Sequence record: OK272470.1
Length of the DNA: 64,000 nucleotides
Reading direction: 5' to 3' (one strand)
From: Escherichia phage JLBYU50
This document shows positions 2,879 through 46,440 of this stretch, in pieces. Made by a program: the position numbers and the translations under genes. How positions within the stretch are numbered: position 1 is the stretch's first letter; every line of letters starts with the position of its first letter. Below the pieces are notes generated by a model, which had not been told where the DNA came from, did no database searches, and saw nothing but the letters and a program-made list of their open reading frames with translations.

Positions 2879-3199
2879 TTAATCCTTAAGACGTTCATTT
2901 AAATCTGCAATAACATCACCTAAATCTTCACATTCCAGTGTTAACTCTGAAACTTGTTCATTCAAACAAGAAACTTCTTCATTTAGATCTGAAATAATGT
3001 TTTCTAATGAATCTACTTGGTCATCATATGAACGTTTTGTTTCTTCAAGTTCTTCCGTAAGATCATTAATCAAACGGAGCAAAGATAAGATATAGCCGTC
3101 TCCTGTCTCGTTCCTCCACTCACTTCCGTAGCGATAAATAATAATTTCACCATTATCGACTACTGTAAAATACTTACCTTCACCAGAATAAATTTCCAT
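2879..3199 (-). CDS. hypothetical coiled-coil protein (106 aa)
   Basis: ORF track; heptad-rich C-terminal half (LNEEVSCLNEQVSELTLECEDL). Confidence 0.45.
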   Translation of the reverse strand: MEIYSGEGKYFTVVDNGEIIIYRYGSEWRNETGDGYILSLLRLINDLTEELEETKRSYDDQVDSLENIISDLNEEVSCLNEQVSELTLECEDLGDVIADLNERLKD

Positions 3200-3208
3200 A
3201 TACTCTCC

Positions 3209-3613
3209 TTATTGTAGTTTAAGTGAACTGCGAAGACGTTTCTCTTGCTGATCACGAATATGTTGTGGAACCTCATGAATTGAATCGTTACCGTGCCTAT
3301 TTTCAACTACTAAAGAGATAACTTGATAACCAAACTCTTCAGCAAGAGTTAAATAAGGTTTAAGTTCTTTCTCTGTGGTTGAAGTGTTAGAGACAATAAT
3401 CTTTTTAATATTAGATGCCATAGCATCACGAACAATACTCTGACACCATGCGTGTGCTTTACCTACATTCTCTGGCTTCCAATCGTAAACACCACTTTCT
3501 GTGTAATGATATTGATCTGCCTCACAGATAGGCCAATAACCTTCAGAAATAATTTCTGCTACTGTAGATTTACCTGCACCTGAAACACCACGTAAGATGA
3601 TAAGTTGTTTCAT
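3209..3613 (-). CDS. P-loop polynucleotide 5'-kinase-like protein
   Basis: Walker A GVSGAGKST near N-terminus; small single-domain kinase; abuts RNA ligase gene (stop/start adjacent at 3613/3614). Confidence 0.6.
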   Translation of the reverse strand: MKQLIILRGVSGAGKSTVAEIISEGYWPICEADQYHYTESGVYDWKPENVGKAHAWCQSIVRDAMASNIKKIIVSNTSTTEKELKPYLTLAEEFGYQVISLVVENRHGNDSIHEVPQHIRDQQEKRLRSSLKLQ

Positions 3614-4546
3614 TTAGCCTCCAAAGAAGTTTTCTATTTCTTTACGTCGCTCTTGTGGATCTAAAGCAGCCCATTGAGTCTTAGTAAAGTTGTTTCGAAG
3701 CCATTCTAGCAAAGTATAATATTCTTCGTCAACAATTTGTTTAGCATTGTTTGGGTTGTCCCAAATCATATCCCACTTCTTATTGCCACCACGCATAAGG
3801 AATTTTTTAGCAAGATAGTATGGTGACTTAATCTTTAACAGTAAGTTAAACGGGTAGTTTGTTTCACGAACAACAAACCCTTCGTGTTTACAATGTTTAG
3901 ACATTTCAACAACATCTGAAAATTTAATCATCGGATAAACTTCAGGACGTTTAAATTTTGTAATAGATGCAATCCCATCAAGAACACCTTCAGGTAGCAT
4001 GAAACTTGTCCCATCAGGATTTTGAATCCTTGCTCCGATTAAGTATGCGCCTGGTTCTTCTTCAACAATATGTGGATCAGAAGGATCACAGATTTCAAAA
4101 AGAAAAGTTGCTTTTGCACTTTCTGTCCACTTAATGAAATACTCTATGTCGTCACACTCGGAAACAATACGGTTCTTTGCCATAATTGCGAAATCTGATT
4201 CTAGGCTCCCTGTTGTTGATACAACAAGTTTCCCTTTGTACACACCTACAGATGCCATAAAACCGTTTACTTTACGGACAGCATCTACAATTTCGTCTGC
4301 TGGAAGATTTGTACCATTTTCAAAACGATTAAAGATTTTAGTAAAAGGCCAAATAACAACATTGTCTTCTGAGTCAACAACCAACCCACGACAATCTAAA
4401 AGTCGTTTGTCAACGTTCCACAAGTTATCCCAGAATACATTGTTTTTGTATTTAAGTACAGCAAGACCAGCATACTCTCCAGATTTAACTTCTTTTTTAT
4501 GCACTAAACCTTTTGCAATCAGGTCATCACAATTGAACTTAGCCAC
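3614..4546 (-). CDS. RNA ligase, T4 Rnl1-like
   Basis: LLDCRGLVV...KIFNRFENG matches T4 Rnl1 N-terminal block (ALECRGIMF...KFFNLNE); adenylation motif KVNGFM; FLFEICDP and LLKIKSPYY blocks. Confidence 0.75.
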   Translation of the reverse strand: MAKFNCDDLIAKGLVHKKEVKSGEYAGLAVLKYKNNVFWDNLWNVDKRLLDCRGLVVDSEDNVVIWPFTKIFNRFENGTNLPADEIVDAVRKVNGFMASVGVYKGKLVVSTTGSLESDFAIMAKNRIVSECDDIEYFIKWTESAKATFLFEICDPSDPHIVEEEPGAYLIGARIQNPDGTSFMLPEGVLDGIASITKFKRPEVYPMIKFSDVVEMSKHCKHEGFVVRETNYPFNLLLKIKSPYYLAKKFLMRGGNKKWDMIWDNPNNAKQIVDEEYYTLLEWLRNNFTKTQWAALDPQERRKEIENFFGG

Positions 4547-15307: not shown

Positions 15308-15739
15308 ATGATGATACTGACTATGTTAATAAACCTACTGAAGAATAAATGGGTTAGGTATTTTGTTCTTATTATAGCACTATTTGGTGGTTTGTATGTT
15401 GGTTTAAACAAATTACACGATGACGTGTATGCACAAGGCTACAACGCAGGTGTTGCTAAACAAGAACAAATATTACAACAAAACCAAATTAAAGCAAAAC
15501 AGCAATTCGATATCTTACAAGCAAAAGCAGATTCAGAAAGATCTAAATTGAATGAAAAAATTCATTCATTAACGAAAGAAAGAAATGATCTTCTTACACA
15601 ACTGGATAAGAAGAGTAATAACATAACACAAGAGAGAATAGATTATGCGAAAACATCTTCTGGCGCTATGTCTTGTTTTAGCCCTAATGATGACGGGTTG
15701 CGCATCATCAACAACAGCTTCCCAGCCTCTACTGATTGA
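15308..15739 (+). CDS. i-spanin (Rz-like): N-terminal TM helix plus periplasmic coiled coil
   Basis: TM segment YFVLIIALFGGLYVGL followed by Q/K-rich heptad region; 3' end overlaps the lipoprotein ORF in another frame; exact start uncertain. Confidence 0.5.
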   Translation: MMILTMLINLLKNKWVRYFVLIIALFGGLYVGLNKLHDDVYAQGYNAGVAKQEQILQQNQIKAKQQFDILQAKADSERSKLNEKIHSLTKERNDLLTQLDKKSNNITQERIDYAKTSSGAMSCFSPNDDGLRIINNSFPASTD

Positions 15740-15974
15740 GCAGTGTAAAGCTGTAGCAACACAACAAATAAAAGCCCCTGATTCTGTCAGTATGGAAAAA
15801 CCATCTACCCCTGTTTTATATACCCCTAATCAAATAAAGAAAGGAGTTACAAGATCAGAGGTAGTTGAGAATCAAACTTTAAACAACGCTTTGTGGGAAA
15901 AAGATAGGATAAAACTTATCAGTTTACAAAACTATATTAAAACATTACAAAGTGAAGGAATAATTTCTAATTAG
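15645..15974 (+). CDS. o-spanin (Rz1-like) outer-membrane lipoprotein
   Basis: signal peptide MRKHLLALCLVLALMMTGC with lipobox Cys; gene starts inside the preceding ORF (15645-15739 overlap). Confidence 0.55.
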   Translation: MRKHLLALCLVLALMMTGCASSTTASQPLLIEQCKAVATQQIKAPDSVSMEKPSTPVLYTPNQIKKGVTRSEVVENQTLNNALWEKDRIKLISLQNYIKTLQSEGIISN

Positions 15975-39402: not shown

Positions 39403-41976
39403 ATGTCAACTACAATTACTAATTTACCCGAAACATCAAAAGTTAATGGTTCTGATTACCTGGTTTTAGACCAACCTGATAAGACTGTTAAAAGCACAGT
39501 TTCCAACTTTCTTGCTGACACTGGGGTGGTTTTAGCCACCCAGTTGAAAGATACAGATGGAGCAGATTTAATACAATCCTCAAATGGTAATACTGTTCAG
39601 GAAGAGTTGAATAACAATCTTCTTAATGATCGTGAACAGTGGCATCGTAGTCTTGCTGAGGCAGGGTTAACCCTTGTCAACGGTAGCTTTGAAGAAGGGG
39701 CTACAGTAAACAATAAGACGGATGCTGTTTGGCATATTGCTGGTGGGCAGTGCTATACGTGGGGTGGTGAATTTCCTAAAACAGTAGCTGCTGGTTCAAC
39801 TCCAGAAACATCTGGTGGCATTGGTCTTGGTGCATGGGTTAGTGTTGTGGATATGTCATTAAGGGATAATCTTTCAAACTCCAGTAATGATAATTACGGT
39901 GATGCGCTGGTAGCAGTTAAGCAGCCGTATACTACCGCAATAAGTAGAACGCAGCATGATAAAAATGCTGATGTACTTGATATTTCGGATTTTGGTGTAG
40001 ACATAACTGGTGCTTCTGATGAGGGTAGTAAGTTACAACAGATATTTAATGAGTTGGCCGCAGCAGGCAAGACTATTCGTATGCGCGGTTCTGTAAAGAC
40101 TACTATTAACCTAGATATAAGGTGTAACGTGCTGTTTGAGCAGGGTTTCAAACTAACTGGCGTGAAACTAGAAACTGGACCTCAGACTTACATTAATATT
40201 TTTAATCGTAATGTAGATGTAAGCCATATTATCCTAGATGGTATTGTTATGTGTTTCTACCCCGTAAGTTCCACTACTACTGTTAGAAACAAAAGATGTA
40301 TTACGTTTACATCCAACACGTTAGAAGATTCATGTGTTCAGGTGGGCGGTAATAACCTATCTGTACGTAACGTGTTAATTTCTAACAATACTTTTAAGAA
40401 CTCTGGGTCACGTATTCCAACAGCAATTCGCCTAACTAATGTCTCAAATATTGAGGTGAGTTTTAACCTTATCCATGAGTATGGTAGACCTATTTACCAA
40501 ACAGCAACCCGCTCTTTCTCCAACTACAATGTCAATATACACCACAATAATATGGTTTGTGAGTATGGTATAACTCTTGCGGGTACTACTGCTTTTAGGG
40601 TTAGTAAGTTCACAATTGCTGACAATGACATTGTTTGCGAGGTAAGAAATACAGCAACAGGTGGTCGGGATGGTATTGATGTAGTTTATGGTACTAGTGG
40701 TTTGATTACTAACAATAACATAAGGACAAACGGAAGAAGCCTTAGACTGTCTAATACTAAGGTAGATGTACTGTTTAACGATATGATATCCAGCGCAACC
40801 AGTGCATTCTCAGTATTAATGGCGAGTTGTTATGAGTCATCATTTGTTGGTAACACTGTTTTCAATAACTCAACTGCTGAAATTATTGTTGTACATGTGC
40901 AGGATGAAGCTGGTGGGCTTTACCGGAGTAATAACATTCGTGTGGAATCTAATACAATCAAGGGATTTGGTAGGCTGATTCGGGTATTAGATACAAAGGA
41001 TTATGTTGTCATCAATAACAGATTAATCAGAACATCAAACAATGGTAATGCAGTTATTATTGCGGATGGGACTAGTGACAGAGGCCAGGTGCATAGCAAT
41101 GTGGTAGTTGGTCCTGCTGGAGTGGTAGTATCTGATATAGGCGGAACCAACAATGCAACAACCCCTGCTGATACACTGCTGAGTGTTGCAGCTAACAGCA
41201 AGACCATAACAGCCGTGGCGAATGGATTAGTTGATCCAGACTTGAATAATTCGAAGGCATTCATCTTCAATGTTCAGGTGTCTGATGTTCAACTATTACG
41301 TGCGGTATCTTCTACAGGCTCAGGAAATGCTAAAACCGTATCTCAGTTCATGTCGGGTATAACTGGGGCAACTCTGGCATGGAATGGTACTGCCTTCCTA
41401 TCAGAGATGTCTGGACCACCAGATATATTTGTGAATGGTGTACTTCAAGATTCCTATGGTGCAGAAGACTATGTGTTCTACAGATCAGGGATGCTTATTG
41501 ATTCCCAGAATAAACTCAGTGTTAGAGACTTCCAGTGTATTGGGGATGGGGATACCATAAACGATGGGACTGGTAATATGACCCTTCGTAATATGGCAGC
41601 AGCACAATCGGCTGAGGGCGCTATTCACAGTGCTTTCTTCCGTGCTCCTCTTGTTATGAATGGCTCAGTGTATGACCCTACAGTAACAGGTATTGCATCT
41701 TCAGATTTGTTTAGCACAGCTCTAGATCCAAGAATGGCTATAGGACAAAAAGCTGATGGAACCTACGTTATTATTTGTGTTAATGGCAGAAACGCAGATG
41801 GGGTAAGTCCAGGCTGCACTATGCAGCAGCTAGCTTCTAAGTTTGTAGCCCTTGGTTGTATCAACGCAATGAATTTGGATGGCGGCGGTTCAGCTACTCT
41901 TTGGTATAACGGTGCTATCATTAATGACCCGGCGGATGGAAGTGAACGCCCTGTTTACCATTGTATGTATGTGTAA
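39403..41976 (+). CDS. tailspike-like protein: beta-helix body plus C-terminal NLDGGGS domain
   Basis: N/V/I-rich repetitive beta-helix-like middle region; C-terminal ...CINAMNLDGGGSATLWYNGAIINDPADGSERPVYHCM resembles the phosphodiester-glycosidase (NAGPA/DUF2233-type) signature. Confidence 0.55.
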   Translation: MSTTITNLPETSKVNGSDYLVLDQPDKTVKSTVSNFLADTGVVLATQLKDTDGADLIQSSNGNTVQEELNNNLLNDREQWHRSLAEAGLTLVNGSFEEGATVNNKTDAVWHIAGGQCYTWGGEFPKTVAAGSTPETSGGIGLGAWVSVVDMSLRDNLSNSSNDNYGDALVAVKQPYTTAISRTQHDKNADVLDISDFGVDITGASDEGSKLQQIFNELAAAGKTIRMRGSVKTTINLDIRCNVLFEQGFKLTGVKLETGPQTYINIFNRNVDVSHIILDGIVMCFYPVSSTTTVRNKRCITFTSNTLEDSCVQVGGNNLSVRNVLISNNTFKNSGSRIPTAIRLTNVSNIEVSFNLIHEYGRPIYQTATRSFSNYNVNIHHNNMVCEYGITLAGTTAFRVSKFTIADNDIVCEVRNTATGGRDGIDVVYGTSGLITNNNIRTNGRSLRLSNTKVDVLFNDMISSATSAFSVLMASCYESSFVGNTVFNNSTAEIIVVHVQDEAGGLYRSNNIRVESNTIKGFGRLIRVLDTKDYVVINNRLIRTSNNGNAVIIADGTSDRGQVHSNVVVGPAGVVVSDIGGTNNATTPADTLLSVAANSKTITAVANGLVDPDLNNSKAFIFNVQVSDVQLLRAVSSTGSGNAKTVSQFMSGITGATLAWNGTAFLSEMSGPPDIFVNGVLQDSYGAEDYVFYRSGMLIDSQNKLSVRDFQCIGDGDTINDGTGNMTLRNMAAAQSAEGAIHSAFFRAPLVMNGSVYDPTVTGIASSDLFSTALDPRMAIGQKADGTYVIICVNGRNADGVSPGCTMQQLASKFVALGCINAMNLDGGGSATLWYNGAIINDPADGSERPVYHCMYV

Positions 41977-42016
41977 TTATCTGGTGGGACTATGCTAATG
42001 GCGTAGATTTCATAGC

Positions 42017-42045
42017 AAAAAAAAACCCCGCTTCGGCGGGGTAAT
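42017..42045. terminator. GC stem-loop CCCCGC-TTCG-GCGGGG flanked by A-run upstream
   Basis: perfect 6-bp stem; A8 run on the 5' side means the U-tract is on the minus strand although flanking genes are on +. Confidence 0.4.
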
Positions 42046-42071
42046 CATTGAGAATAACAATAGGAGTACAT

Positions 42072-42170
42072 ATGGAATCTCAACTCAGTCAACCTAAGCA
42101 GGTTATCAACGTCAAAGTGAACAAGCAGAGTATCGCTCATGATTTAAAAAGTAATGAGAACGCACTATGA
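42072..42170 (+). CDS. small protein (32 aa)
   Basis: below ORF-track cut-off; AGGAG RBS 6 nt upstream; stop TGA overlaps ATG of next gene (ATGA). Confidence 0.3.
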   Translation: MESQLSQPKQVINVKVNKQSIAHDLKSNENAL

Positions 42171-42412
42171 GAAAATTTTTAATAGGTATGTTCTGTACAT
42201 ATCCTGATAATAAAGTCAGTTCTACTAAAGTTTGGAATGCTATTGGTATGATTGTTATGTCCAGTATGTTTATTTATTTGGGAATTGATAAAGAAATTCC
42301 TGAATGGATGGGCTGGGCTTTTGTTTTTATGATCACACCATCCAGACTAATGAAGAATTTAATAGATTTACGTTGGGGCAGATCACCTGCTCCTGATAAG
42401 GAGGATAACTAA
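42167..42412 (+). CDS. small membrane protein with two predicted TM helices (holin-like topology)
   Basis: 81 aa; hydrophobic segments IGMIVMSSMFIYLGI and WMGWAFVFMITP, charged C-terminus. Confidence 0.45.
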   Translation: MRKFLIGMFCTYPDNKVSSTKVWNAIGMIVMSSMFIYLGIDKEIPEWMGWAFVFMITPSRLMKNLIDLRWGRSPAPDKEDN

Positions 42413-43899
42413 TGGCAGATTATGGTTTAACAGATGCTGGTTTTGTAATTCCAACGTTTGATGATATTTTAAATAATTATATGACAGCATTGAAAAACAC
42501 TTTCGGTGCAGATACAGCTACATCTGAAGATACTGTCTTTGGTCAACTGTTTCGTATTATTGCATATACAGATTACACCCTTTGGGAAGGTATGCAAGGT
42601 GTTTACAATACCCAAACCTTAGATGGTGCAGAAGGTATTTACCTTGATGAAATCTTCTCTAAAAGAGGTTTTTATCGTAAAGCTGCTTCTGCTGGTAGTG
42701 GTTATGCTTATGTTAAATCTAACAATAAGGCAGCTTGGACTTATGAACTAAGCACAGATGTTTATTTTAATGCTGATAACGATTTAACATATTATGTCAG
42801 TGCACCGACAATGTTGAATGCTAAGATTGGAGCATATACCATTTCTAAAGCAAACGCAACAGCTTCTGGTGAAACTTCCATTACTTTCTACATTCAAAGT
42901 GCCATTGATGGTGGGCTTAACAGTAAAACACTAAGTCCTAGCAATACAAACTTTATTGTAGACCTCACGAATTTCATTAAAGCTAACGTATCAACAACAG
43001 ATCGTGCTTTAGTATGGAATGATGCTAGTAATGTTTACATGGGTTATAATCCAGAAGATAATGTTAACCCAGTAGGTCTAGTAACACCAGTGAAATTTTA
43101 CGCATCTATTGCAATAGGTACAAAATGGAGTGAAATTCCAGTTACGTGTTCAGACGTTGGTTATAATCCAGTAGGTACAGAAAGTATTACAGGTATTTCT
43201 TCAACGTTTACAGGCTTTTTAGATACAGGTAACTTCTATCCGTTCTCTCCAGGTACAGATGTTGAAACAGATGCAGAATTCCGTTCTCGTTTCAATGATA
43301 ATATGGATGAAGCTAATGCTGCTACTCGTGCTGCTATTGTTAAAGCTCTATTACTGACAGATGGTGTGACAAAGGTTAAGATTTATGATAACCCTACACT
43401 ACACGATCAGGAACATGCTCCAGCTATGACATTCCAGACTATTGTGTATGGTGGTACAGCAGAAGAAGTTGCACAGGTTATTTATAATACTAAGCCTATT
43501 AACACCTTAACTTATGGTACGACAGCAATTACTATCATAACAGAAGATGGTGGTCAAGAAGTAATTCGTTTTTCTCCTGGGGATAATGCGGAATACTCGC
43601 TTAAACTGGTGTATCAAACTGGCAATGGTAGTGTGTTAAGTACAACAGAAAGGGAAAATATTGTTTCTGCTCTTGCAAACTTACAGGCTTATTTTGAATT
43701 AGGGTCAACAGTAACTAACGACCAGATAAAAGGTGTAATTTATTCTGCACTTGCGTTCGGACGCTTGACTTCTCTCCGTGTTTATGTTAAACTTAATACT
43801 GAGGATGACAGTAAATATAATGAGGGAGATATCACTCCAGCGTACAATGTTGTACCATCCTTTGACCTTGATAATATTTCCTACGAGTACGGAGTCTAA
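42412..43899 (+). CDS. baseplate/tail structural protein (495 aa)
   Basis: ORF track; AAGGAGG RBS; start overlaps upstream stop. Confidence 0.45.
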   Translation: MADYGLTDAGFVIPTFDDILNNYMTALKNTFGADTATSEDTVFGQLFRIIAYTDYTLWEGMQGVYNTQTLDGAEGIYLDEIFSKRGFYRKAASAGSGYAYVKSNNKAAWTYELSTDVYFNADNDLTYYVSAPTMLNAKIGAYTISKANATASGETSITFYIQSAIDGGLNSKTLSPSNTNFIVDLTNFIKANVSTTDRALVWNDASNVYMGYNPEDNVNPVGLVTPVKFYASIAIGTKWSEIPVTCSDVGYNPVGTESITGISSTFTGFLDTGNFYPFSPGTDVETDAEFRSRFNDNMDEANAATRAAIVKALLLTDGVTKVKIYDNPTLHDQEHAPAMTFQTIVYGGTAEEVAQVIYNTKPINTLTYGTTAITIITEDGGQEVIRFSPGDNAEYSLKLVYQTGNGSVLSTTERENIVSALANLQAYFELGSTVTNDQIKGVIYSALAFGRLTSLRVYVKLNTEDDSKYNEGDITPAYNVVPSFDLDNISYEYGV

Positions 43900-46098: not shown

Positions 46099-46440
46099 AT
46101 GGAGCTAACAGAAGTATGGGATATCGCTAAAGAGGCGATTATCCCTCTTATTGGCGTAATCTGGGTGGTCTTCAAACAGAAGATAGATGATATGGCAAGT
46201 GATTTGGATAAAATGGAAGACAAATACCGCGAACTAGAAAAGAAGTTGGTGTTTGTTGAATCCACTTATGCTACCAAAGCGGAACTTGCTCAAATGCTTA
46301 ACCAGATCAACTCTACATTAATGGCAAATAACACTGCCTTAGAACAGAAGATTGAAAAAATAATGGATTTAAAAAATGCTCCTGTTCAATTAATGTTAGA
46401 GGAGATTACGAAGCGCACACAAAGTAAGGACAAAAATTAA
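46099..46440 (+). CDS. small protein with N-terminal hydrophobic helix and coiled coil (113 aa)
   Basis: ORF track; IIPLIGVIWVVF segment then heptad-rich region. Confidence 0.4.
   Translation: MELTEVWDIAKEAIIPLIGVIWVVFKQKIDDMASDLDKMEDKYRELEKKLVFVESTYATKAELAQMLNQINSTLMANNTALEQKIEKIMDLKNAPVQLMLEEITKRTQSKDKN

What the first reader, a model, noticed from the sequence alone, without database searches (positions are those of the whole stretch)
42072..42412. Translationally coupled 32-aa ORF plus 81-aa two-TM membrane protein embedded between tailspike and baseplate genes
Seen: a strong RBS drives a 32-aa hydrophilic ORF whose stop overlaps (ATGA) the start of an 81-aa protein with two hydrophobic helices and a charged C-terminus, whose stop in turn overlaps the next structural gene. 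Inference: holin/antiholin-like pair, or a membrane-targeted superinfection-exclusion or injection-assist protein expressed with tail genes. A GC hairpin with reverse-oriented U-tract (42017-42045) precedes it.
Basis: inference. Interest (0 to 1): 0.45.

Follow-up and report, generated by a model that had tools for sequence, protein, structure and literature searches.

The report
Probable holin gene plus tailspike remnant
The 81-residue membrane protein wedged between tailspike and baseplate genes of this rV5/phi92-like coliphage belongs to a small uncharacterised family that in other phages sits between the cell-wall-degrading enzyme and the spanins, so it is most likely the long-unidentified lysis (holin-type) protein of these phages, while the 32-residue ORF in front of it is only the leftover start of a deleted tailspike gene.

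Summary
The sequence features are all real. The window is a Justusliebigvirus (phi92/rV5-like) E. coli myophage.

**The 32-aa ORF (42072-42170) is not a partner protein.**
- Its RBS and first 22 codons are about 88% identical in DNA to the 5' end of full-length tailspike genes such as Kosakonia phage Kc283 gp51.
- Its last 10 codons are the junction shared by the 49-102-aa truncated tailspike N-domain ORFs of relatives.
- It is absent in VEcB, PATM, phAPEC8 and ESCO5, and frameshifted in KKP_3264.
- At most it serves as a translational-coupling leader.

**The 81-aa protein (42167-42412) is Phi92_gp144, family phrog_1322.**
- It is a single-copy core gene of essentially all rV5-like phages.
- It was not reported in virion cryo-EM or mass-spectrometry studies.
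- It is a divergent member of Pfam DUF2644 (hhalign 97.6%).
- In nine independent lineages outside the rV5 tail module, homologues lie directly downstream of soluble endolysins of five or more catalytic types, and usually upstream of spanin-like genes.
- One rV5-related metagenomic myophage keeps endolysin, the homologue and a spanin-like gene just upstream of the baseplate wedge gene.

Best reading: a holin-class lysis protein. An antiholin or accessory role is not excluded. The idea was raised before on topology alone, and no experiment exists.

The parts
42016..42045 (.). GC-rich hairpin (stem 42025-42031 / 42036-42042, UUCG loop) preceded by A9. It reads as a terminator only on the minus strand. 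It is part of the tailspike-cassette boundary (hairpin + leader + RBS) shared with other tailspike genes.
42062..42066 (+). Shine-Dalgarno AGGAG, 5 nt upstream of the ATG of the 32-aa ORF.
   Evidence: Read directly from the sequence. The same leader lies upstream of full-length tailspike gp51 of Kosakonia phage Kc283.
42072..42137 (+). Codons 1-22 of the 32-aa ORF. This is the vestigial 5' end of a tailspike gene (MESQLSQPKQVINVKVNKQSIA).
   Evidence: blastn finds 82-88% identity to the 5' ends of full-length tail spike genes of Kc283, CAU_YEP3 and EK8, and to an unannotated site in SW16-7. Kc283 gp51 starts MESQFRQPKQVINVEVNKQSIARNFG. There is a weak PHROG hit to positions 1-26 of tail spike phrog_11182.
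42138..42170 (+). Last 10 codons plus stop of the 32-aa ORF (HDLKSNENAL*). This junction is shared with the truncated tailspike N-domain ORFs of relatives, and its TGA overlaps the ATG of the 81-aa gene.
   Evidence: The same tail, (R/H)DLKSNENA(L/P), ends the 102-aa (BME3), 101-aa (PaulScherrer) and 49-aa (alia) ORFs. Homology to most relatives starts at window ~42137.
42167..42412 (+). 81-aa small membrane protein (Phi92_gp144 / phrog_1322 / divergent DUF2644). Probable holin-class lysis protein.
   Evidence: phrog_1322 E 4.7e-27. It is 100% identical to the gene that phage PATM annotates as Phi92_gp144. hhalign against DUF2644-labelled proteins gives 97.6%. Homologues lie in lysis cassettes.
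42412..43899 (+). Baseplate wedge (Baseplate_J) gene, whose ATG shares one base with the stop of the 81-aa gene. Listed as context and as the downstream coupled gene.
   Evidence: The phi92 gp145-gp146 wedge is described.
39403..41976 (+). Tailspike (Tail_spike_N plus a C-terminal NAGPA-like domain). Upstream context.
15308..15974 (+). Overlapping i-spanin (15308-15739, N-terminal TMD plus coiled coil) and o-spanin (15645-15974, lipobox MTGC) next to the terminase gene. These are the other identifiable lysis genes in the window.
46099..46440 (+). 113-aa protein with an N-terminal TMD and a coiled coil, located after the tail fibre assembly gene. It is a possible partner. It is the positional and architectural equivalent of rV5 gp31 / PVP-SE1 gp44, which in Vequintavirinae precedes a 4-TMD protein and the family member.
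   Evidence: phrog_15210; weak hits to phrog_5345 and to Rz-like phrog_739.

Best explanation
The 81-aa gene encodes a small inner-membrane helical-hairpin protein of the phrog_1322 / DUF2644 family. This is a lysis-cassette component, and most likely the holin of this phage.

Proposed mechanism:
- The protein is made late from the tail/baseplate operon mRNA. This timing is inferred from gene position.
- It inserts N-in/C-in. This topology is inferred from the flanking charges.
- It accumulates until it permeabilises the membrane, which lets the soluble endolysin reach the cell wall. The spanins at 15.3-16.0 kb then disrupt the outer membrane. This step is inferred from how holins are known to work.

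Its position directly upstream of the baseplate wedge gene looks like a relic of a lysis cassette that once sat inside the baseplate operon.

The 32-aa ORF is the decayed 5' end of a tailspike cassette fused in frame to the old junction. It has no function of its own. It may still deliver ribosomes to the ATGA restart site, because the 81-aa gene has only a weak Shine-Dalgarno sequence here.
For: Evidence on the 81-aa protein:
1. Family and distribution. It matches phrog_1322 at E 4.7e-27. It occurs in 371 phage records, essentially once per genome. Genus by genus, this matches the distribution of the neighbouring DUF2612 baseplate protein, so it is a core gene.
2. Link to DUF2644. A profile-profile comparison of the close family (A1) against 23 DUF2644-labelled proteins (A5) gives 97.6% probability, E 3.4e-12. 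All 26 members of A2 and all 23 members of A5 hit phrog_1322.
3. Context of remote homologues. Each is immediately downstream of an endolysin, often with overlapping stop and start:
   - Peptidase_M15_4 (L028, and Pseudomonas phage Bise)
   - a 131-aa M15-like protein (L024; identified by motif only)
   - GH108/PG_binding_3 (L026, L030/31)
   - Amidase_3 (L032/33)
   - Amidase_2 (L037/38, a Mu-like phage)
   - Peptidase_M15_3, one gene removed (L036)
   - Ralstonia phage RS138: ORF26, then ORF27 (the homologue), then an annotated 'Rz protein'
4. What follows the homologue. Downstream genes in most of these cassettes have an N-terminal TMD plus coiled coil (i-spanin-like), and some are followed by lipobox proteins.
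5. Need for a holin. None of the adjacent full-length endolysins I read has an N-terminal TMD. They are therefore soluble and need a hole-forming holin.
6. A link to this window's arrangement. L032/33 is an rV5-related myophage with the order sheath initiator, Amidase_3, homologue, i-spanin-like gene, wedge, Wedge1, Gp53-like fibre. The homologue lies just upstream of the wedge gene, close to its position in this window.
7. No holin is established for this phage group. [quoted passage not shown] The BME3 authors list this same 81-residue protein as one of two class-II-like candidates.
8. Not seen as a virion component. It is not in the phi92 cryo-EM baseplate or fibre list. In CB7 the flanking genes are noted 'MS/MS confirmed' but the homologue is not. 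rV5 gp29 has no MS note.

Evidence on the 32-aa ORF: as set out under parts.
Against: - There is no experimental evidence anywhere for this family.
- Both hydrophobic segments are only marginal, the second especially, and published predictors disagree, giving 0 to 2 TMDs.
- In three cassettes another canonical holin-like gene sits upstream of the endolysin: L024 (67 aa, 2 TMD), L030 (126 aa, 3-4 TMD) and L036 (62 aa, 2 TMD). In those phages the family member could be an antiholin or accessory factor. It occupies the slot that LysA holds in P2 (my recollection of P2, not checked here).
- In Vequintavirinae the gene is adjacent to a 4-TMD protein that could be the real holin.
- In this window the gene is not next to any endolysin. 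BME3 has a second candidate of 61 aa. rV5 and CB7 authors proposed other proteins (gp129; CB7_82).
- No curated Pfam or NCBIfam holin family matches, and the window protein does not reach the DUF2644 threshold.
- The context sample is small and was not drawn at random.
Confidence: 0.55

Rival explanations
1. The 81-aa protein is a lysis component but not the hole-former. It would be an antiholin or lysis-timing accessory, comparable to P2 LysA or P1 LydB, that works with a separate holin.
For: In L024, L030 and L036 a separate canonical holin-like gene precedes the endolysin, while the family member follows it. In Vequintavirinae, PVP-SE1, CB7 and Aeromonas TS9 the gene follows a 4-TMD protein and a 1-TMD coiled-coil protein. 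A similar trio occurs in the lysis cassettes of L030 and L036. The family has weak TMDs and conserved motifs next to the hydrophobic segments (S-H-T-K-x-W and K-x-I-x-L-R-W-G) that look more like an interaction surface than a pore lining.
Against: In L032/33, L037/38, Bise and RS138 I saw no other classic two-TMD holin-like protein in the immediate cassette, although the endolysins that could be read are soluble. The 4-TMD protein is absent from this 64-kb window.
Confidence: 0.22
2. It is a membrane-associated morphogenetic factor, or a minor virion component, of the baseplate and tail-fibre apparatus, as its operon position and its translational coupling to the wedge gene would suggest.
For: In all rV5-like genera the gene lies inside the baseplate/tail-fibre operon. 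It is a core gene and is conserved about as well as the baseplate proteins (36.6% versus 29.4% identity to the rV5 group). Some GenBank records label it 'structural protein'.
Against: Homologues in Mu-like and other phages sit in lysis cassettes that are not adjacent to tail genes. The protein is not listed in the phi92 cryo-EM model. The CB7 and rV5 homologues carry no MS/MS or MS note. The 'structural protein' labels cite no evidence. T4 gives a precedent for a holin gene (t) inside the late tail-fibre gene cluster; this is from my own knowledge and was not checked here.
Confidence: 0.1
3. It is a superinfection-exclusion or injection-blocking membrane protein, like T4 Imm, or a moron.
For: Its size and hairpin topology resemble T4 Imm (from memory). 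PHROGs files the family under 'moron, auxiliary metabolic gene and host takeover'.
Against: It is a single-copy core gene in a late structural operon. It is identical among phages carrying different tailspikes, and it is found with hosts from E. coli to Pectobacterium and Aeromonas. Its remote homologues are embedded in lysis cassettes.
Confidence: 0.04
4. The 32-aa ORF encodes a functional small protein, such as an antiholin or regulator, that acts together with the 81-aa protein.
For: It has a strong RBS, it is held in frame up to an ATGA overlap, and the same ORF is kept in PHB05 and in the Phapecoctavirus AV126.
Against: Only 4 of 50,697 phage records carry it (two of them the same phage, PHB05), and the rest of the 12 matches are to other genes' 5' ends. 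It is a 22-codon tailspike 5' end fused to a junction that other truncated ORFs share. It is absent in VEcB, PATM, ESCO5 and phAPEC8, which have their own Shine-Dalgarno sequences instead. In KKP_3264 it is frameshifted by a 1-nt deletion.
Confidence: 0.04

Closest known systems
Phi92_gp144 / PHROG phrog_1322 'membrane protein' (rV5 gp29, PVP-SE1 gp42, CB7_35, phAPEC8 gp094)
   Same: Direct sequence membership (E 4.7e-27). The protein is 100% identical to the gene that phage PATM annotates as Phi92_gp144. It has the same position upstream of the wedge gene in Justusliebigvirus and Phapecoctavirus.
   Different: Nothing differs. This is the same uncharacterised family. In Vequintavirinae the gene lies further downstream, after the tail fibre assembly gene, in a cluster of three membrane-protein genes.
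Pfam PF10841 (DUF2644), small integral membrane proteins of unknown function
   Same: Profile-profile match of 97.6% (E 3.4e-12). The motifs S-H-T-K-L-W before helix 1 and S-K-F-L-S-L-(K/R)-Y-G after helix 2 are shared. All sampled DUF2644-labelled proteins also hit phrog_1322.
   Different: The window protein itself does not reach the Pfam threshold. It has no hit at E <= 0.1, and the best family members reach only E 0.036. The rV5-like branch carries an extra conserved I-P-E-W-M-G-W loop motif and lies in tail operons rather than next to endolysins.
Class II holins (for example phage 21 S21 pinholin), two TMDs, N-in/C-in
   Same: It is small, has a predicted helical hairpin with a short acidic loop, and has a hydrophilic charged C-terminal tail that varies in length across the family. 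Helix 1 is rich in Gly/Ala/Ser/Thr/Met, like SAR-type segments. Homologues occupy the holin slot next to endolysins.
   Different: There is no sequence relationship to any curated holin family. The second helix is only weakly hydrophobic. No conserved dual-start motif is present. The adjacent endolysins are soluble, so a pinholin mechanism would not be enough. There is no functional test.
P2 LysA (membrane protein encoded between endolysin K and the spanins LysB/LysC, proposed antiholin); recalled from memory, not checked here
   Same: It has the same slot in the cassette, after the endolysin and before the spanins. In some cassettes it coexists with a separate holin-like gene upstream of the endolysin.
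   Different: No sequence similarity was tested or expected. As I recall it, LysA is larger and has several TMDs.
T4 holin gene t in the late tail-fibre gene cluster; from memory
   Same: It is a precedent for a conserved holin gene embedded in a late tail-fibre or structural operon, far from the endolysin and spanin genes.
   Different: T4 T is an unrelated protein of about 218 aa with one TMD and a large periplasmic domain.
Stand-alone or truncated tailspike N-terminal domains (101-102-aa ORFs of BME3, PaulScherrer, nieznany, ZCKP1)
   Same: The 32-aa ORF has the same position, the same ATGA overlap and the same last 10 codons. Its first 22 codons are homologous to residues 1-22 of the same tailspike N-domain.
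   Different: The 101-102-aa ORFs keep the whole ~92-residue domain (phrog_7992 E 1e-62). The window keeps only 22 residues, taken from a different (Kc283-type) allele.

Membership tests
phrog_1322 / Phi92_gp144 family | Significant full-length sequence match to the family profile | tested here: met
   E 4.7e-27, residues 1-80 against profile positions 3-82 of 87. tblastn finds 100% identity to the gene annotated Phi92_gp144 in phage PATM.
Pfam DUF2644 (PF10841) | Score above the Pfam gathering threshold (22 bits) | tested here: not met
   The window protein has no DUF2644 hit at E <= 0.1. Only 2 of 26 family members give weak hits, best E 0.036.
Pfam DUF2644 (PF10841) | Remote homology to bona fide DUF2644 proteins | tested here: met
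   hhalign of A1 against A5 (23 proteins carrying a precomputed PF10841 hit) gives 97.6%, E 3.4e-12, over 71 columns. All members of A5 hit phrog_1322.
Holins (functional class; class II topology) | Small protein with two transmembrane helices, N-in/C-in | tested here: inconclusive
   Helix 22-40 is plausible. The 47-57(-64) segment is short and weak. AF2 gives a helical hairpin at pLDDT 64.6. Published predictions for homologues range from 0 to 2 TMDs. The charge distribution fits N-in/C-in.
Holins (functional class; class II topology) | Hydrophilic, charged cytoplasmic C-terminal tail | tested here: met
   The tail PSRLMKNLIDLRWGRSPAPDKEDN has 5 K/R and 4 D/E. Across the family the tails are hydrophilic and vary in length.
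Holins (functional class; class II topology) | Genetic linkage to endolysin and spanin genes | tested here: inconclusive
   Not met in this window: the neighbours are a tailspike and the baseplate wedge, and the spanins are 26 kb away. Met for remote homologues in nine lineages.
Holins (functional class; class II topology) | Membrane hole formation: lethal on expression, triggered by energy poisons, releases endolysin | not testable with these tools
   This needs wet-lab expression and complementation assays. The literature searches found no experiment.
Holins (functional class; class II topology) | Sequence membership in a curated holin family | tested here: not met
   No Pfam or NCBIfam holin model matches. 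The best is Phage_holin_9 at E 0.13 for one of 26 members. There is no PDB sequence match.
   The upstream ORF is 0, 32, 49 or 101-102 aa long in close relatives, and all versions are tailspike fragments. One relative is frameshifted.
Virion structural protein | Detected in purified particles by cryo-EM or mass spectrometry | tested here: not met
   From the literature only. The phi92 cryo-EM component list lacks gp144. In CB7 the flanking genes are noted 'MS/MS confirmed' and CB7_33-35 are not. rV5 gp29 carries no MS note. Absence of a small hydrophobic protein from MS data is weak evidence.
Superinfection exclusion / T4 Imm-like | Accessory, variable distribution and early expression | tested here: not met
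   It is a core single-copy gene inside a late structural operon. Expression timing itself was not measured.
Tailspike N-terminal (particle-binding) domain, for the 32-aa ORF | Complete ~92-residue N-terminal domain followed by a receptor-binding or catalytic body | tested here: not met
   Only residues 1-22 are homologous. The rest of the gene is deleted, so this is a remnant and not a family member.

The most novel reading that the evidence does not exclude
DUF2644/phrog_1322 proteins are not classical holins. They would be a distinct, widespread third kind of inner-membrane lysis component that acts between endolysin and spanins, as a holin partner, trigger or regulator. In rV5/phi92-like phages the gene has been kept inside the baseplate operon and translationally coupled to a baseplate wedge gene, which would tie lysis timing to tail-gene expression.
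Probability: 0.22. Interest if true: 0.55.

Novelty: new member of a known kind. Interest (0 to 1): 0.38.

Why it matters
rV5/phi92-like myophages (Vequintavirinae, Stephanstirmvirinae) are among the most common broad-host-range therapeutic coliphages. Their holin has never been identified. The LL12 announcement says so explicitly, and different papers guess different genes.

Linking the core gene Phi92_gp144 to DUF2644 genes that sit in the endolysin-to-spanin slot of unrelated phages does two things. It gives a concrete, testable candidate for the missing lysis-timing protein. It also assigns a probable role to a Pfam family of unknown function.

The work also shows that small ORFs at tailspike-cassette boundaries can be recombination scars rather than genes, which is useful for annotation.

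Tried and rejected
**Searches that found nothing useful**
- Direct family searches on the 81-aa protein (Pfam, NCBIfam, PDB sequences) gave nothing above noise.
- AlphaFold2 with 18 close homologues gave only a low-confidence helical hairpin (pLDDT 64.6). I did not run fold searches, because matches to an 81-residue two-helix model would be meaningless.
- The search for related loci with the diverse alignment failed because no stretch was conserved enough.
- A literature search for DUF2644 returned nothing.

**Literature checked for a virion role**
- The phiTE cryo-EM paper does not mention pTE239-241, and its supplements are not held.
- The 2012 phi92 paper is not held.
- The 2026 phi92 cryo-EM paper never mentions gp144.
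- The 'structural protein' labels in ESCO5 and ECGD1 cite no evidence, and the phAPEC8 GenBank record calls the homologue only 'hypothetical protein'.

**Ideas considered and dropped**
- A conserved dual-start motif (M1/M8) was rejected, because position 8 is Leu in several homologues.
- The 4-TMD partner protein seen in PVP-SE1, CB7 and TS9 was sought in the window and is absent.
- The hairpin as a plus-strand terminator was rejected, because the T-run is on the minus strand only.
- The idea that the last 10 codons of the 32-aa ORF are the 3' end of a full-length tailspike gene could not be supported. Every relative examined has at most a 101-102-aa truncated ORF there.
Full report
**1. What is there**

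The window is an rV5/phi92-like E. coli myophage. A megablast search of 41500-43000 finds Justusliebigvirus and Phapecoctavirus genomes, with PHB05 as the best full-length match at 95%.

- AGGAG lies 5 nt before the ATG at 42072.
- The hydrophilic 32-aa ORF runs 42072-42170.
- An ATGA overlap leads into the 81-aa ORF, 42167-42412.
- A TAATG overlap leads into a Baseplate_J wedge gene, 42412-43899.
- A tailspike gene lies upstream at 39403-41976.
- A 7-bp GC hairpin at 42025-42042 follows a run of nine A, so its T-run is on the minus strand only.

The one qualification is that the second 'hydrophobic helix' (47-57) is short and weak. This is true here and across the family. Published predictions for homologues range from 0 to 2 transmembrane domains.

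**2. The 32-aa ORF is a recombination scar**

In close relatives, the ORF that ends at the same ATGA differs from genome to genome:

| Relatives | Upstream ORF |
|---|---|
| BME3, nieznany, ZCKP1 | 102 aa |
| PaulScherrer | 101 aa |
| alia | 49 aa |
| PHB05, AV126, this window | 32 aa |
| VEcB, PATM, ESCO5, phAPEC8 | none; the membrane-protein gene has its own Shine-Dalgarno (GGGGAG, AAGGA, AGAGG) |

- The 101-102-aa versions are complete tailspike N-terminal domains. They match positions 1-92 or 327-420 of many tailspike PHROGs, with E down to 1e-62. The 49-aa version is an internal deletion of that domain.
- All versions share the last ~10 codons, (R/H)DLKSNENA(L/P).
- The hairpin, leader, RBS and first 22 codons of the window ORF are 82-88% identical in DNA to the 5' ends of full-length tail spike genes in unrelated phages (Kc283, CAU_YEP3, EK8) and to an unannotated site in SW16-7.
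- Kc283 gp51, a 793-aa colanidase tailspike, begins MESQFRQPKQVINVEVNKQSIARNFG. Homology to the window ORF stops exactly at codon 22.
- In KKP_3264, which is otherwise 98% identical, a 1-nt deletion in the A-run destroys the reading frame.
- Only 4 of 50,697 phage records carry this leader plus ORF at 96% identity or more, and two of those are the same phage, PHB05.

The ORF is therefore the fossil 5' end of a tailspike cassette joined to an older junction. It is not a conserved partner protein.

In this window the 81-aa gene has only a weak Shine-Dalgarno sequence (GAG). Several independent deletion derivatives nonetheless keep an RBS-equipped ORF in frame up to the ATGA. It is plausible, though only inferred, that the remnant persists because it couples translation into the 81-aa gene.

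**3. The 81-aa protein is a core gene of the rV5-like phages**

- It matches phrog_1322, annotated 'membrane protein', at E 4.7e-27. It is 100% identical to the gene that phage PATM annotates as Phi92_gp144.
- tblastn finds it in 371 phage records, with 373 places in all. Genus by genus, this matches the distribution of the adjacent DUF2612 baseplate protein: Escherichia 218 versus 219, Klebsiella 40 versus 40, Cronobacter 15 versus 15, Aeromonas 15 versus 15, Pectobacterium 10 versus 10.
- It is about as conserved as that baseplate protein (36.6% versus 29.4% identity to the rV5 group).
- In Justusliebigvirus and Phapecoctavirus it lies directly upstream of the wedge gene.
- In Vequintavirus, Seunavirus, Certrevirus and Aeromonas phages it is the last gene of a cluster of three membrane-protein genes. 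The order is a ~104-aa protein with one TMD and a coiled coil, then a ~150-aa protein with four TMDs, then this family. The cluster follows the tail fibre assembly gene.
- rV5 proper has only a 105-bp gap upstream of its wedge gene.
- The 4-TMD protein is not present in this window.

**4. It is probably not a virion part**

- The 2026 phi92 cryo-EM study lists baseplate and fibre components (gp134-139, gp143, gp145-147) and never mentions gp144.
- In CB7 the flanking gene products are noted 'MS/MS confirmed', but the three membrane proteins are not.
- rV5 gp29 carries no MS note.
- The 'structural protein' labels in some records cite no evidence.

Non-detection of a small hydrophobic protein is weak evidence, but nothing points the other way.

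**5. The decisive lead comes from remote homologues**

An exhaustive profile search found only 24 cluster representatives among 1.84 billion proteins. A search with a more diverse profile found 339 proteins, many carrying Pfam DUF2644. Homology between the close family and the DUF2644-labelled proteins is solid. hhalign gives 97.6%, E 3.4e-12, and all of these proteins hit phrog_1322. The shared motifs are S-H-T-K-L-W before helix 1 and K-(F/L)-(L/I)-S-L-(R/K)-(Y/W)-G after helix 2.

The gene neighbourhoods of these remote members are strikingly uniform:

| Locus (homologue) | Gene order |
|---|---|
| L028 (P0057) | Peptidase_M15_4 endolysin, homologue, N-TMD coiled-coil protein |
| L024/25 (P0054) | 67-aa two-TMD protein, 131-aa M15-like protein (by motif), homologue, i-spanin-like gene |
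| L026 (P0063) | PG_binding_3 endolysin, homologue (7-nt overlap), i-spanin-like ORF (ATGA overlap), lipoprotein |
| L030/31 (P0053) | GH108 endolysin, homologue, i-spanin-like gene, lipobox protein |
| L036 (P0094) | M15_3 endolysin, multi-TMD protein, homologue, i-spanin-like gene |
| L037/38 (P0131), Mu-like | Mor, two genes with N-terminal hydrophobic segments, Amidase_2, homologue |
| Pseudomonas phage Bise, Mu-like | Mor, M15_4/VanY endolysin, homologue, lipoprotein |
| Ralstonia phage RS138 | ORF26, homologue (ORF27), annotated 'Rz protein' |
| L032/33 (P0049), rV5-related myophage | sheath initiator, Amidase_3, homologue, i-spanin-like gene, wedge, Wedge1, Gp53-like fibre |

None of the adjacent full-length endolysins has an N-terminal membrane segment, so they need a hole-forming holin.

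The L032/33 arrangement links the two kinds of context. There the homologue lies just upstream of the baseplate wedge gene, close to its position in this window, but it still has its endolysin and a spanin-like neighbour.

In this window the spanins sit next to the terminase gene instead, as an i-spanin at 15308-15739 and an o-spanin with lipobox MTGC at 15645-15974.

**6. Interpretation**

The gene is best explained as a holin-class lysis protein, retained from a lysis cassette that was once embedded in the baseplate operon. Three things fit this reading:
- No holin is established for rV5-like phages (LL12).
- The BME3 authors had already flagged this 81-residue protein, from DeepTMHMM topology alone, as one of two class-II-like candidates.
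- As I recall it, T4 keeps its holin gene t in the late tail-fibre cluster.

The main uncertainty is whether it is the hole-former or an antiholin/accessory factor. Three cassettes also contain a canonical holin-like gene upstream of the endolysin. Vequintavirinae have an adjacent 4-TMD protein. The family's hydrophobic segments are marginal. The slot it occupies is the one that LysA holds in P2 (from memory).

Other authors proposed different holin candidates: rV5 gp129 and CB7_82. No curated holin family matches. Nothing has been tested experimentally.

**7. Novelty and score**

The gene and its family are already catalogued, and the holin suggestion is already in print, though on thin grounds. 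Two things are added here. The first is the homology link to DUF2644 together with consistent lysis-cassette context in nine lineages. The second is the demonstration that the 32-aa ORF is a tailspike remnant. This amounts to a useful annotation and a testable candidate for a minor open question, not a new kind of system. I score interest at about 0.38.

Noticed in passing
L001 (PHB05, NC_052652) ~3478-4067; corresponds to the window junction at 41977-42330: PHB05 carries a ~590-bp tandem duplication. It runs from the last ~150 bp of the tailspike gene through the hairpin and the 32-aa ORF into the membrane-protein gene. This creates a truncated 69-aa copy of the membrane protein and a 51-aa copy of the tailspike C-terminus. 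It could be a real duplication or an assembly artefact.
   Followed up: partly
L002 2723-3031 (BME3), L017 2729-3034 (PaulScherrer), L022 and L023 3196-3504 (nieznany, ZCKP1): Many Stephanstirmvirinae keep an intact 101-102-aa stand-alone tailspike N-terminal (particle-binding) domain ORF, coupled by ATGA to the gp144 gene. Because it is conserved across two genera, it may be functional, for example as a plug or adaptor for an unoccupied tailspike docking site, rather than a decaying pseudogene.
   Followed up: partly
window 46099-46440 (+): A 113-aa protein with an N-terminal TMD and a long coiled coil follows the tail fibre assembly gene. RefSeq/PHROG annotates it as 'lipoprotein', although it contains no cysteine. 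It is the positional equivalent of rV5 gp31 / PVP-SE1 gp44. Analogous proteins combining a coiled coil with one TMD accompany DUF2644 genes in the lysis cassettes of L030 and L036, so it may also be lysis-related.
   Followed up: partly
L006 5201-6270 (PVP-SE1 genes 44-42); L012 4139-5216 (CB7_33-35); L008 5140-6249 (Aeromonas TS9): A conserved cluster of three membrane-protein genes sits inside the tail-fibre module of Vequintavirinae-like phages. The order is a 1-TMD coiled-coil protein, a 4-TMD protein (PF26221 Phage_phiTE_239 in a related metagenomic contig), and a DUF2644-like protein. It looks like a lysis cassette stripped of its endolysin and spanins.
   Followed up: partly
L032/L033 5428-6734 (metagenomic ~100-kb myophage contigs): An Amidase_3 gene, the DUF2644-like gene, an i-spanin-like gene and a 52-aa ORF are embedded between the sheath-initiator and wedge genes of a baseplate operon. 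This is an unusual location for what looks like a lysis cassette.
   Followed up: partly
window 39403-41976 (+): The tailspike combines the usual Tail_spike_N domain with a C-terminal NAGPA (phosphodiester glycosidase) domain (E 4.6e-25). That is an uncommon catalytic module for a tailspike.
   Followed up: no
search results: About 21 GenBank records named 'Campylobacter phage' (for example C7, A13b, C3, B15; 135-150 kb; host given as C. jejuni) match rV5-like and phi92-like coliphages in the genes searched here. Their naming or host assignment looks doubtful.
   Followed up: no
L014 ~3130-3140 (KKP_3264) versus window 42143-42147: A single-base deletion in the A5 run frameshifts the 32-aa ORF in Serratia phage KKP_3264. 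This may be a genuine mutation or a homopolymer sequencing error.
   Followed up: no
window 2879-3199 (-): A 106-aa, highly acidic coiled-coil protein is annotated in PHB05 RefSeq as 'hol-like chemotaxis'. It has no hydrophobic segment, so the name is probably misleading.
   Followed up: no
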